Shown here in pieces: positions 24,001 through 27,000 of a DNA stretch of 28,758 bases. Position numbers: made by a program. Every line of letters starts with the position of its first letter. Position 1 is the stretch's first letter. Source of the stretch: a virus; UHGV virus genome UHGV-0099614; one strand, written 5' to 3'.

Positions 24001-27000
24001 TCTAATCGGTCGTACACTTGGGCTTCTCTTAAATAAATTAGCTCTGTTTTATCGCATGGTTCTAAGTGCTTTATTTTATTTAAAAATAAATCAATCTTAT
24101 CACTGAGAAATAGAGCGTTAAGATAACATTCGAAAATCGGAGATACCCAAGCTTCATCAGATAACAATGGGGTGAGATAATTAACCGCGTTCAATGGTAA
24201 ATTACATAAAATAAATTTATCGCATAAGTTTAATATGTTCGCAGGGTTTATTAGCATAAACTTTTTAGAATCTAATTCTAAAAAATCTTGCGCTTTTTTA
24301 TCCAGCAGTTGGATTTCATTCTTATCGTCAACCGAACATACTAGCGCCCTAAGGTACAAGTTCAAGAAGGAATTAATATAATCATCTCCTGTTTCAATTA
24401 TCCCTCCATTGTCTATCCAGTTATTTACGTCTTTAGCTTTCATCTGATTATTCTCAATAGCAAAAATAAGAAATGAAAACTTTTCCAAATCCAAAACATC
24501 AGATACTAATTCAAATTTAATATCGGGAGTGCTCATTCCTATTGAGGACTGCTCTAGATACTCCGCAGAAAAGGAGTCTATCTCCCTAACTTTATCAATA
24601 TGCAACTTTCCTAAATTATAAAGTCGACTATCTGAAAAATAGGTAAGTTTAAGCAAATTGGTTAAAACAGCGATATATCTATCATCTTTTCCGTCATCAA
24701 TATCAGCTAGTAATTGGATTATTAACCGGTCAACATTATCTTTTTCCTGTTTACTAAGTGAAACATAATGATTACGTTGGTTTCGAGTTATGAGTAAACA
24801 GGTTTCAGTGTATAGCCGAAGAATCCTTGAATTATTGGATGAATAATACTTATCCAGATTCTGAGCCAGTTCAAACGCAAAAACAAAATCTTGGACTCTT
24901 AAAGCACCGCGAACTAATCCAGTTAACTCTTGCTCGGATAAATCATAAACCTCTGTGTTATGATAGCTTTTAGATAGCTCTTCCATTGAGGCTAATCGCT
25001 CAAAGAACACCTCTTTGAGATAGAACCCATCTATTTTTAAATCTGAATATCTTTTTTTAGCTAACTCTTCAGAGGTTCTCGATTCCAAATCGATCAATAT
25101 AGATGTAATGACCTCACGAACATCACCAGGGAGGTCATTGTTCTGTAGCAATTTTAGAAGATCATTTTTTGATGATGATATCGAGCCTTTTACCAACTCA
25201 AGCTTTACATTCAAAGCATTCAATAGTAGATATACATCATTTTCTAATGAATGAATATTATTAAGAACGTCTAGCTTTTCACGAACTCTGCCTAATTCTC
25301 TATAGCAAATATCTCTCATTATACTGTCTATAACAGTCCGCAGATCCCTAGATTTAATACTACGAATTATATATTCGTATTTATCACCTATGATATTGTC
25401 ACCTACGCCACTGTGTATTTGATCTACCATCATCGTCCATTTCTTCTATTTGTATATATTTTTGTTTCCAATAATGTTATCACCAGAACCACTGTGATTC
25501 TGAGTCACTGACCCAATATTCGTGTTTTGCTCAGGCTGAATCAGTTTTAAAATTTGCTGTATTTCTGATGATTCGTTCAATTTTCGCTCGATAACATGCT
25601 CTCCATAATCCTTAAGCTCAAGAGTATTTACTTTATAAGCTAAAGTCTCCAATAAAGTATCGTCAACAATCCATCCATGTAGCTTTTCTTTCAAGAAACC
25701 TGTAGTTATTGCAACGCCGTTCTTAAACCCATCATAGAGTATTCCTGATAGCAGAGTACTTGTTAAAAAATCCATATCCCCCCCTTAAATTGCTTATTTA
25801 AACCTGTTGTCGCCGACTAAAACTGACCCATCCTTTTTGAGTTTTCGAGGTACAAAAGATGGTGTCTGAACTTGCTATCTGTGTTCTGGCTATATAGGAC
25901 TAGTCCATTAAATGATGATTACCTACTTGAACCCATCATAGTGCCCGCCAATGGGCTTAACATACCCTAATGTAATTAATGTCTCAATGTGACTAGATCG
26001 CCCTTTTGCACTTTAGGACTGATAGATCCGCTTCTCGCTTAAGGTTGCCCGCACCCTTCTGCATATGTTACTGAAGATGGTCAAGCAACATGCAAATGGG
26101 TAGTCAACTGGATGCGAATACTCATATTTTGTCTTATCCGACCATGTAAACACATCCCAGAGGGGTGTATATTGATGATTTAGGCTATTCAAGATCGCTA
26201 GTGTCGAAAACAATCTGCGACTTATCCATCTCCAGGCAATCTGGAGGCAAACCCAGCATAGCCTCAGCATCACCTACATTACCGATAATGGCGTAGTCAT
26301 CATATCCCCATCTTTCCAGATCGAGATTGCTTTCGGGATAACCAGGGGATAGTAACAACCATTCACGCAACTCTTTCAGTGTCTTTTCCATAATCAATAA
26401 GTTCCATGTTTAAGATTGGCTGACCACCAGCTACAGTCAATGATTATCCCATACGGGTAAAGCGGTGTCGGGCTATTTCTTCCAACTATCCCCCAATGAG
26501 TAGGGTTATCAAGAACCAGCAAGATAGCGGCAGTTGGAAGAGTAAACATTGATGTTTGAGGCATAACGCAAATTTGCGTTATGCCTGATTAACGGTAAAC
26601 CGGAACTACCAGCTATCATCCCCCTCTCAATAGGGTATACCGTAATGACAAGGTGATACAAAGTCTCAATAGGGTTGTATAGGAACATTTTGACTACACA
26701 AAATGCATTATGTATCATTTGCACTTATATTCACAACCCTATTGAGACAATGCAATGAACGTTAGAATTTACTGCCGAGCATCAACTGAGGGGCAACACG
26801 CTGATCGAGCACTTACCAGCCTACGTGAATTTTCAAAATCAAAAGGCTGGCAGATTGCAGGAGAGTATATAGAAAATGCTAGCGGGGCGAAGCTTGAGCG
26901 CGTAGAGCTTATGCGGCTATTGTCTGAAGCCCAGTCCGGCGATCTGTTGCTAGTGGAAGCTATAGATCGTCTGAGTCGCCTAGAACATAGCGCATGGGTC

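What the first reader, a model, noticed from the sequence alone, without database searches (positions are those of the whole stretch)
25400..25500. Small and large ORFs are in the same frame, separated by a single TAG, and share the peptide motif HSG-x-GDNIIG-x-K
The 109-aa protein ends ...NHSGSGDNIIGNKNIYK-TAG. Reading on in the same frame gives K-K-W-T and then the large ORF start MMVDQIHSGVGDNIIGDK. The 12-residue motif is therefore repeated about 24 residues apart across one amber codon. The two copies use different synonymous codons (CAC AGT GGT TCT GGT GAT AAC ATT ATT GGA vs CAC AGT GGC GTA GGT GAC AAT ATC ATA GGT), so the peptide is conserved, not a recent DNA duplication. Possible explanations: an ancestral single protein of about 1200 aa split by a nonsense mutation; programmed amber read-through producing a fusion isoform; or a shared docking motif between a small partner and its effector. 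In-frame adjacency alone has roughly a one-in-three chance.
Basis: seen in the sequence. Interest (0 to 1): 0.7.

Follow-up and report, generated by a model that had tools for sequence, protein, structure and literature searches.

The report
Known Bab/Agp amyloid-signalling antiphage pair
The repeated peptide is real, but it is the already published BASS11 amyloid motif, through which the E. coli phage sensor Agp (GapS6b) switches on its small membrane-killing partner Bab (GapS6a); it is not a broken gene or a stop-codon read-through signal.

Summary
A 109-aa ORF (25775..25446) ends in TAG, and 12 nt later, in the same frame, a 1094-aa ORF starts (25433..22149). Both carry HSG-x-GDNIIG-x-K: 10 of 12 residues are identical, and 6 of those 10 use different codons.

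This is a known system. The small protein is identical to the crystallised 'Babybass' domain (PDB 9h9v). It matches NCBIfam GapS6a and Pfam HetE-N. The large protein matches GapS6b and has TPR, GreA/B-C and PIN domains.

The pair is Bab/Agp of E. coli (Ibarlosa et al., bioRxiv 2024), also called GAPS6. In that paper the shared motif, BASS11, forms amyloid fibrils. Proline substitutions in either copy abolish resistance to phage T5.

Across 41 orthologous loci there are always two genes, and each downstream gene has its own N-terminal copy of the motif. The stop codon is TAA, TAG or TGA. All three frames occur, with at least 9 frame changes. Some pairs overlap by 4 nt, and one in-frame relative has three stops in the spacer. 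No Bab–Agp fusion was found.

The split-gene and read-through readings are therefore not supported. The 'shared motif between partners' reading is right in spirit. Verdict: already known, low interest.

The parts
25446..25775 (-). bab / gapS6a CDS (109 aa plus TAG): the small cell-death executioner
   Evidence: ORF list. NCBIfam GapS6a scores 120 bits against a cut-off of 90. Pfam HetE-N PF20701 E=3.5e-33. RefSeq annotates it as gapS6a.
25524..25775 (-). Babybell (Bell/HeLo-like) helical membrane-targeting domain, Bab residues 1-84
   Evidence: 100% identical to PDB 9h9v 'Babybass' chains over residues 1-84. G11, D2, Y14 and D15, which the paper mutated, are present, and G11, Y14 and D15 are invariant in 40 homologues.
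25452..25520 (-). BASS11 amyloid motif of Bab (residues 86-108); core HSGSGDNIIGNK at 25461-25496
   Evidence: Sequence. Q92, H94, G96, S97, D99, N100 and K105 are invariant in 40 homologues. The paper reports fibrils of peptide 86-108, and that N100P abolishes defence.
25434..25448 (-). Junction: TAG stop (25446-25448) plus a 12-nt spacer AAGAAATGGACG. It is in frame with the next gene and has no strong Shine-Dalgarno sequence.
   Evidence: In orthologues the spacer ranges from -4 to +24 nt, with variable stop codon and frame.
22149..25433 (-). agp / gapS6b CDS (1094 aa from the first ATG; 1093 aa if the second ATG at 25430 is used): the phage sensor
   Evidence: NCBIfam GapS6b scores 1063.7 bits against a cut-off of 850. 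RefSeq annotation. Both start versions are in public records.
25356..25427 (-). BASS11 amyloid motif of Agp (paper residues 2-25, counted from the second ATG); core HSGVGDNIIGDK at 25380-25415
   Evidence: Sequence. Q5, H7, G9, G11, D12 and N13 are at least 90% conserved and K18 is invariant in 31 homologues. The paper reports that the N12P mutant (N13 here) abolishes defence.
23898..24038 (-). Best-scoring TPR repeats of Agp (residues ~466-512, within a longer helical repeat region)
   Evidence: Pfam TPR_8/TPR_1 hits are below cut-off. A profile of 31 homologues against PDB gives consensus TPR E=3.4e-6 and CDC27 E=2e-5.
23424..23648 (-). GreA/B C-terminal-like (RNA-polymerase-binding) domain, Agp residues ~596-670
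22749..23153 (-). PIN nuclease domain of the TPR-GreAB-C-PIN type, Agp residues 761-895
   Evidence: Pfam PF20698 E=6.2e-16, 59.3 bits against a cut-off of 27.8. D763 is invariant and corresponds to the paper's D762N.
25778..25786 (-). Shine-Dalgarno-like AAGGGGGGG immediately upstream of the bab ATG
   Evidence: Read directly from the sequence. Its function is inferred.

Best explanation
The two ORFs are the Bab/Agp (= GapS6a/GapS6b, GAPS6) abortive-infection antiphage system of Escherichia coli. The repeated peptide is its BASS11 amyloid-signalling motif.

Agp is the sensor. It carries an N-terminal BASS11 motif, TPR repeats, a GreA/B-C-like domain thought to bind RNA polymerase, and a PIN domain. 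Bab is the executioner. It has a small four-to-five-helix 'Babybell' domain with a hydrophobic N-terminal helix, followed by a C-terminal BASS11 motif.

On infection by phage T5 and some other siphoviruses, Agp's motif is thought to convert to a cross-beta fold, probably after Agp oligomerises. That fold templates the matching motif on Bab. Bab's helical domain is then released and attacks the membrane, and the cell dies before the phage replicates.

The two copies must therefore stay matched as peptides while sitting on two separate polypeptides. This explains why the peptide is conserved while the codons differ.

The short spacer most likely serves co-expression or translational coupling. 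The shared reading frame in E. coli is an inherited accident of a 6-15-nt spacer, not a functional feature.

Shown by published experiments on this exact sequence: fibril formation, loss of function in the proline mutants, T5 resistance, and replacement of the Bab/BASS11 pair by HET-S and the NWD2 R0 motif.

Shown here: sequence identity, domain architecture, conservation, partner co-variation and frame lability.

Inferred: the RNA-polymerase sensing step, Agp oligomerisation, pore formation and translational coupling.
For: Identity: Bab residues 1-84 are 100% identical to PDB 9h9v 'Babybass'. The lengths 109 and 1094 aa, and every residue the paper names, match: Y57, T85, I87-G88-S89-V90, Q92, D99, N100, G11 in Bab, and N12, S628, L634, D762 in Agp, the latter four each at +1 when counted from the first ATG.

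Family: both NCBIfam GapS6a/b models score above their curated cut-offs. RefSeq annotates the pair in 22 of 5426 complete E. coli genomes. Pfam gives HetE-N and PIN-TPR-GreABC.

Published function.

Comparative evidence gathered here:
- All 41 loci have two genes, and each b gene has an N-terminal copy of the motif.
- The motif positions are the most conserved columns in both families.
- Cognate a/b motifs resemble each other more than shuffled pairings do: BLOSUM score 52.5 against 46.7 +/- 1.2, with 0 of 20000 shuffles reaching the observed value.
- L005, L009 and L010 have lost the same glycine in both partners.
- L035 has switched both partners to a different motif.
- The motif also occurs on unrelated effector and receptor proteins in cyanobacteria, Bacteroidota and other phyla, as expected for a portable signalling module.
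Against: The mechanistic paper is a preprint. In it, amyloid conversion in vivo is inferred from foci, rods, insolubility and beta-breaker mutants, not from a structure of the complex.

The phage trigger and the RNA-polymerase interaction are not demonstrated.

The PIN mutant destabilised Agp, so the nuclease's role is unresolved.

My co-variation statistic does not correct for shared ancestry.

I could not retrieve accessions OWC60847.1 and OWC60848.1 directly. The window's Agp allele may differ from ECOR25's at a few residues, since the cluster representative P0076 differs at 2 positions.
Confidence: 0.9

Rival explanations
1. Programmed (or leaky) read-through of the single TAG produces a Bab-KKWT-Agp fusion isoform with two tandem BASS11 copies, and this isoform has a function.
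For: In this window, and in 22 of 41 orthologous loci, the two genes share a frame. In E. coli only one stop, TAG followed by A, separates them. A fusion would carry two motif repeats, loosely like the two pseudo-repeats of HET-s (analogy from the literature cited). Marinomonas Agp naturally carries two tandem copies.
Against: The stop is TAA in 17 loci and TGA in 12. Nineteen loci are out of frame, including four with a 4-nt GTGA overlap. The tree needs at least 9 frame changes, and sister loci differ. The in-frame relative L002 has three stops, TAA TAG AAA TGA, in the spacer. No gene caller or database holds a fused product. In the paper, a plasmid-borne BASS11(Bab)-GFP reporter was converted by chromosomally encoded Agp independently of full-length Bab, so the signal passes between separate polypeptides, and the HET-S/R0-Agp chimera worked with a redesigned junction.
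Confidence: 0.03
2. The pair is a recently split pseudogene: a single ~1200-aa gene interrupted by a nonsense mutation or a sequencing error.
For: The two ORFs are in frame and separated by one stop codon.
Against: The junction is identical in 22 complete E. coli genomes and in E. albertii. The two-gene arrangement is conserved in all 41 loci across two proteobacterial classes. Bab and Agp are each annotated and detected as separate proteins, and the pair is functional. A single gene would need two adjacent copies of the motif, an arrangement seen in no Bab-containing protein. The only fused sensors found carry other N-terminal domains, not Bab.
Confidence: 0.01
3. The shared peptide is an ordinary heterotypic docking or dimerisation motif (for example beta-strand augmentation) that holds Bab on Agp, without amyloid templating.
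For: Co-variation of the partner motifs is expected for any direct interaction. The in vivo evidence for amyloid is indirect.
Against: Synthetic peptides of both motifs form ThT- and Congo-red-positive fibrils, and solid-state NMR shows a rigid beta core. The motif behaves as a transmissible prion-like element in E. coli and Podospora. It can be functionally replaced by the unrelated HET-S/NWD2 amyloid pair. The same motif is portable across many unrelated effector and receptor families.
Confidence: 0.06

Closest known systems
Bab/Agp of E. coli ECOR25 with the BASS11 motif (Ibarlosa et al., bioRxiv 10.1101/2024.11.07.622273; PDB 9h9v)
   Same: The protein lengths match (109 and 1094 aa). The Bab globular domain is identical. 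The motif sequence and position are the same, every mutated residue is present, and the pair sits in a prophage-borne defence location.
   Different: Nothing substantive. The window may carry a slightly different Agp allele and a different prophage backbone, since only window 17987-28758 is co-linear with other complete genomes. The paper numbers Agp from the second ATG.
GAPS6 (GapS6a/GapS6b) from Gamma-Mobile-Trio islands of Vibrio parahaemolyticus (Mahata et al., bioRxiv 10.1101/2023.03.28.534373; NCBIfam NF047935/NF047936)
   Same: It is the same two-gene family, with both HMMs above cut-off. Vibrio homologues are 71-79% identical for Bab. Antiphage activity was shown in E. coli.
   Different: That paper reported only TPR and PINc domains in the second protein and did not mention the shared motif. 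Here the pair is carried in an argW prophage remnant, not a GMT island. The version of the Bab/Agp preprint that I read does not mention GAPS6.
HET-S / NWD2 (and [Het-s]) amyloid signalling of Podospora anserina, and bacterial Bell/NLR BASS gene pairs (Dyrka et al. 2020)
   Same: Adjacent genes; a helical membrane-targeting executioner with a C-terminal ~20-residue amyloid motif; a receptor with a matching N-terminal motif; and partner motifs that co-evolve. Functional interchangeability has been shown.
   Different: [quoted passage not shown] The host is a unicellular enterobacterium. The motif family (BASS11) is distinct from BASS1-10. The Babybell domain is shorter than typical Bell domains (~80 aa against ~100 aa).
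TPR-GreAB-C-PIN (TGP) conflict systems predicted by Kaur, Burroughs, Iyer and Aravind (cited as ref. 27)
   Same: All three domains were verified here, and the sensor is coupled to an effector module.
   Different: Here the effector is coupled in trans through an amyloid motif. Related sensors fuse an effector directly: P0132 has a trypsin-like domain and P0135 an unknown domain.

Membership tests
GAPS6 (NCBIfam GapS6a + GapS6b) | The small protein matches NF047935 above its curated cut-off | tested here: met
   120.3 bits against a cut-off of 90, E=3.9e-35, over the full length
GAPS6 (NCBIfam GapS6a + GapS6b) | The large protein matches NF047936 above its curated cut-off, and the two genes are adjacent and co-oriented | tested here: met
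   1063.7 bits against a cut-off of 850, profile positions 1-1089 of 1089. The genes are 12 nt apart on the same strand.
GAPS6 (NCBIfam GapS6a + GapS6b) | Confers antiphage protection | not testable with these tools
   Published for the Vibrio pair and for the E. coli ECOR25 pair
Bab/Agp BASS11 amyloid-signalling pair | Babybell globular domain | tested here: met
   100% identity to PDB 9h9v over residues 1-84
Bab/Agp BASS11 amyloid-signalling pair | The same ~20-residue motif at the C-terminus of the effector and the N-terminus of the sensor, conserved and co-varying across orthologues | tested here: met
Bab/Agp BASS11 amyloid-signalling pair | The motif forms cross-beta amyloid and templates its partner | not testable with these tools
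   Published: fibrils, ThT and Congo red binding, solid-state NMR, and the N100P and N12P mutants
TPR-GreAB-C-PIN (TGP) sensors | TPR repeats | tested here: met
   Profile against PDB: consensus TPR E=3.4e-6, CDC27 E=2e-5. The single-sequence Pfam hits fall below cut-off.
TPR-GreAB-C-PIN (TGP) sensors | GreA/B C-terminal-like domain | tested here: met
   [not shown]
TPR-GreAB-C-PIN (TGP) sensors | PIN domain of the PF20698 type with a conserved catalytic aspartate | tested here: met
   PF20698 E=6.2e-16. D763 is invariant in 31 homologues.
Classical BASS/FASS pairs (Bell or HeLo effector + NLR receptor) | The receptor is a STAND NTPase (NACHT or NB-ARC) | tested here: not met
   No NTPase domain was found in Agp by Pfam, NCBIfam or the PDB profile search. 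The receptor is a TGP protein, as the authors also state.
Programmed stop-codon read-through genes | Stop codon identity and in-frame downstream ORF conserved among orthologues | tested here: not met
   TAA, TAG and TGA all occur. Frames 0/1/2 occur in 22/8/11 loci, with at least 9 changes. There are 4-nt overlaps, and L002 has a triple stop.

The most novel reading that the evidence does not exclude
In the Escherichia/Vibrio lineage, where only one stop (TAG-A in E. coli) and 6-15 in-frame nucleotides separate the genes, rare natural read-through might yield a few Bab-Agp fusion molecules carrying two tandem BASS11 repeats. Such molecules could act as built-in nucleation seeds, or set the threshold of the amyloid switch. 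Alternatively, the predominance of frame 0 (parsimony places it at the root) could be a relic of the pair's origin, by internal motif duplication and fission of a single effector-sensor gene like the fused variants P0132 and P0135.
Probability: 0.04. Interest if true: 0.5.

Novelty: already known. Interest (0 to 1): 0.15.

Why it matters
The system itself is notable. It is the first bacterial immune pathway shown to transmit a signal by amyloid templating, and it links phage defence to fungal HET-S and animal RHIM cell-death signalling. That discovery has already been made, on this very sequence.

What this check adds is modest:
- Bab/Agp and GAPS6 are the same family, although they were described under different names. 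The version of the Bab/Agp preprint I read does not mention GAPS6.
- A 41-locus survey shows that the shared reading frame is incidental.
- There is independent fold-level support for the GreA/B-C domain.
- A few architectural variants turned up: a motif co-switch, a tandem motif, and sensors with a fused effector.

Tried and rejected
- PADLOC (2023) gave no hit for either protein. The system post-dates that release, so this is not evidence against a defence role.
- The two E. coli genomes whose match is 1 nt shorter (H21, H22) were checked for a natural frame change at the junction. The indels lie upstream of bab and inside agp, so they say nothing about the frame.
- The promoter and terminator consensus scans found no more sites than shuffled sequence, and no terminator.
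- The exact-sequence look-up did not return the paper's accessions (OWC60847.1, OWC60848.1), so identity rests on PDB 9h9v and on residue-by-residue agreement.
- Two long Agp homologues, of 1213 and 1315 aa, were examined as possible Bab-Agp fusions and rejected. Their N-terminal domains are unrelated to Bab.
- A literature search for the original TGP description under 'GreAB-C' or 'HetE-N' returned only the Bab/Agp preprint.
- A recent DNA duplication or gene conversion of the motif was rejected on codon divergence and on conservation across phyla.
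Full report
**1. Observation.** The feature is on the minus strand.
- A 109-aa ORF (25775..25446) ends ...NHSGSGDNIIGNKNIYK-TAG.
- The same frame continues K-K-W-T and then ATG ATG, the start of a 1094-aa ORF (25433..22149) that begins MMVDQIHSGVGDNIIGDK.
The two 36-nt copies share 25 of 36 nt. Ten of 12 residues are identical, and six of those ten use different codons.
- The best 12-residue match between the two proteins is 10. In 300 shuffles it was typically 6 and reached 8 only once.
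- The resemblance extends to about 20 residues: SVTQNHSGSGDNIIGNKNIY against MVDQIHSGVGDNIIGDKYEY.

**2. What the genes are.**
- The small protein matches Pfam HetE-N (PF20701, E=3.5e-33) and NCBIfam GapS6a (120 bits, cut-off 90).
- The large protein matches NCBIfam GapS6b (1063.7 bits, cut-off 850) and Pfam PIN-TPR-GreABC (PF20698, E=6e-16).
- Residues 1-84 of the small protein are 100% identical to PDB 9h9v, 'Babybass'.
- RefSeq annotates the same pair, at 99.8% identity or more, as gapS6a/gapS6b in 22 of 5426 complete E. coli genomes. E. albertii carries an identical Bab protein.
- The exact Bab sequence occurs on at least 1000 Escherichia contigs.

**3. Literature.** The preprint 'Amyloid signaling in antiphage defense' (10.1101/2024.11.07.622273) describes Bab (109 aa) and Agp (1094 aa) of E. 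coli ECOR25. Bab has an N-terminal helical 'Babybell' domain. Agp has TPR, GreA/B-C and PIN domains. The two share an amyloid motif, BASS11, at Bab residues 86-108 and Agp residues 2-25.

Every residue the paper names falls at the same position in the window's Bab: Y57, T85, I87-G88-S89-V90, Q92, D99, N100, G11, D2, Y14 and D15. The Agp residues N12, S628, L634 and D762 are all found at +1 when counted from the first ATG. The authors therefore number Agp from the second ATG (25430), and a 1093-aa version of the protein is also in public records.

The paper reports the following:
- Both motif peptides form fibrils that bind ThT and Congo red.
- Solid-state NMR shows a rigid beta-strand core.
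- The motif behaves like a prion in E. coli and in Podospora.
- The chromosomally inserted pair blocks phage T5 and some Drexlerviridae by abortive infection.
- The proline substitutions N100P (Bab) and N12P (Agp) abolish both the toxicity and the defence.
- T5 infection triggers Agp-dependent assembly of a BASS11-GFP reporter.
- Bab can be replaced by HET-S, provided Agp's motif is replaced by the R0 motif of NWD2.

The same family was shown independently to be antiphage, under the name GAPS6 from Vibrio GMT islands. That study noted only TPR and PINc domains. The version of the Bab/Agp preprint that I read mentions neither GAPS6 nor the reading frame.

I retrieved 62 loci from reference genomes. 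Forty of them, plus the window, carry a full-length Bab homologue, giving 41 in all. The results:
- All 41 loci have two genes.
- Every downstream gene begins with its own copy of the motif, H-x-G-x-G-D-N-x-x-[GR]-x-K.
- The stop codon is TAA in 17 loci, TAG in 12 and TGA in 12.
- The spacer ranges from -4 to +24 nt.
- The frame relation is 0 in 22 loci, 1 in 8 and 2 in 11.
- A neighbour-joining tree of the Bab proteins requires at least 9 frame changes. Sister loci differ, for example L002/L005, L013/L026, L019/L039, L021/L023 and L016/L027.
- Four Pseudomonas loci overlap by GTGA.
- The in-frame relative L002 has TAA TAG AAA TGA in its spacer.

No Bab homologue among 75 clusters exceeds 150 aa. 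No Agp homologue among 61 clusters carries PF20701.

Frame 0 is constant within the enterobacterial/Vibrio clade and within the Methylococcales clade. That is expected for a very short spacer flanked by coding tails, where only indels of three nucleotides, or shifts of the stop or start by point mutation, are tolerated. The split-pseudogene and programmed read-through readings are therefore not supported.

**5. Evidence that the two copies must match.**
- The motif columns are the most conserved positions in both families.
- Cognate motif pairs score higher than shuffled pairings: 52.5 against 46.7 +/- 1.2, with 0 of 20000 shuffles reaching the observed value. Shared ancestry is not corrected for.
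- L005, L009 and L010 have lost the same glycine in both partners, and the Methylococcales pairs share a GRDK ending.
- In Planctobacterium (L035), genuine Bab and Agp homologues both lack BASS11 and carry a different N/G/I/V-rich motif at the same two termini.
- BASS11 also occurs on unrelated proteins in cyanobacteria, Bacteroidota, Campylobacterota, Desulfobulbaceae and a CPR bacterium, often as adjacent C-terminal and N-terminal pairs. This fits the paper's statement that the motif is portable.

**6. Architecture of Agp, tested here.**
- TPRs: a profile of 31 homologues hits consensus TPR proteins (E=3.4e-6) and CDC27.
- S629, L635 and D763 are invariant in the family.

**7. Context.**
- A 24-bp direct repeat (3965-3988, the 3' end of tRNA-Arg(CCT), and 27516-27539) bounds an integrated element of about 23.5 kb between yfdC and dsdC.
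- The element carries an integrase, gtrABC, P22/Sf6-like tail genes, a CI-like repressor, a rolling-circle replication protein and a serine recombinase.
- Bab/Agp lies near attR. Its GC content is 0.349, against 0.44-0.46 in its neighbours. This is typical of acquired defence cargo and agrees with the paper's 'prophage hotspot' description.

**8. Mechanism, verdict and remaining uncertainty.** Agp senses infection, possibly through RNA polymerase. Its N-terminal BASS11 motif adopts a cross-beta fold and templates the C-terminal BASS11 motif of Bab. The Babybell domain is then released to damage the membrane, and the infection aborts.

The tight spacing probably ensures co-expression. A predicted 8-bp helix pairs Bab motif codons with the Agp start (z=-2.5), which hints at translational coupling. 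I did not test that helix in orthologues.

The finding is real but already known, so I score its interest as low. The only open residue is whether rare read-through of the single TAG in E. coli has any consequence. The comparative data make a conserved role very unlikely.

Noticed in passing
window 3913-3988 and 27516-27539: A 24-bp direct repeat (TTCGATTCCTGCAGGGGACACCAT) is formed by the 3' end of tRNA-Arg(CCT) and a copy next to dsdC. It bounds an argW-integrated element of about 23.5 kb that carries an integrase (4113-5306), gtrABC (5460-8014), a P22/Sf6-like tailspike, tail needle and stabilisation protein (8081-13828, minus strand) and a CI-like repressor (15947-16663).
   Followed up: partly
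window 17987-28758 versus 8000-17986: Only the right-hand module is co-linear, at 99.9-100% identity, with other complete E. coli genomes. It holds a rolling-circle replication protein (20343-21395), bab/agp, a serine recombinase (26755-27381) and dsdC. No complete genome covers 80% or more of 8000-28758. The defence module may therefore travel as a cassette separate from the phage backbone.
   Followed up: no
window 22149-25775: The bab/agp segment has GC 0.349, against 0.44-0.48 on either side, which marks it as horizontally acquired cargo.
   Followed up: yes
window 25428-25433: Agp has two consecutive ATGs. Orthologues align to the second one (M-V-[DN]-Q). The paper's residue numbers fit the second ATG, and databases hold both a 1094-aa and a 1093-aa version. 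The true spacer may therefore be 15 nt, not 12 nt.
   Followed up: partly
window 25428-25435 and 25469-25476 (minus strand RNA): A predicted 8-bp helix pairs Bab motif codons (CAUUAUUG) with the Agp start region (CGAUGAUG). The 131-nt fold has z=-2.5, and 1 of 200 shuffles folds as well. This may be translational coupling.
   Followed up: no
L002 ~5322-5345 (Enterobacteriaceae bacterium B14): The spacer between the Bab and Agp homologues reads TAA TAG AAA TGA AAA ATA ATG: three in-frame stops in the closest non-Escherichia relative.
   Followed up: yes
L035 5001-5363 onward (Planctobacterium marinum): True Bab (38% identity) and Agp (26% identity, E=6e-102) homologues both lack BASS11. They share a different Asn/Gly/Ile/Val-rich motif at the same termini, so the signalling motif has been switched in both partners together.
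   Followed up: partly
L006 and L007 (Marinomonas), N-terminus of the Agp homologue: The sensor carries two tandem motif copies: a degenerate FIGDNVVGG followed by HTGSGDNVLGNK. This is reminiscent of the two pseudo-repeats of HET-s.
   Followed up: no
L067 2614-6561 (P0132) and L066 3001-6642 (P0135): These are single-gene variants of the sensor. P0132 fuses a trypsin-like domain and a degenerate motif (HDGTGDIVADK) to the Agp body, and sits next to a Lactamase_B/Apyc1-like gene. P0135 (Shewanella, next to a CI-like repressor) fuses an unknown ~150-aa domain and has no motif. Neither has a bab gene upstream.
   Followed up: partly
[not shown]
   Followed up: partly
L041-L062: The Q-x-H-S-G-S-G-D-N-[VI]-x-G-[DN]-K motif is almost invariant across cyanobacteria, Bacteroidota, Campylobacterota, Desulfobulbaceae and a Paceibacterota MAG. 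It sits on proteins unrelated to Bab or Agp. Some occur as adjacent C-terminal and N-terminal pairs (L046, L050, L058, L062), in varying frames.
   Followed up: partly
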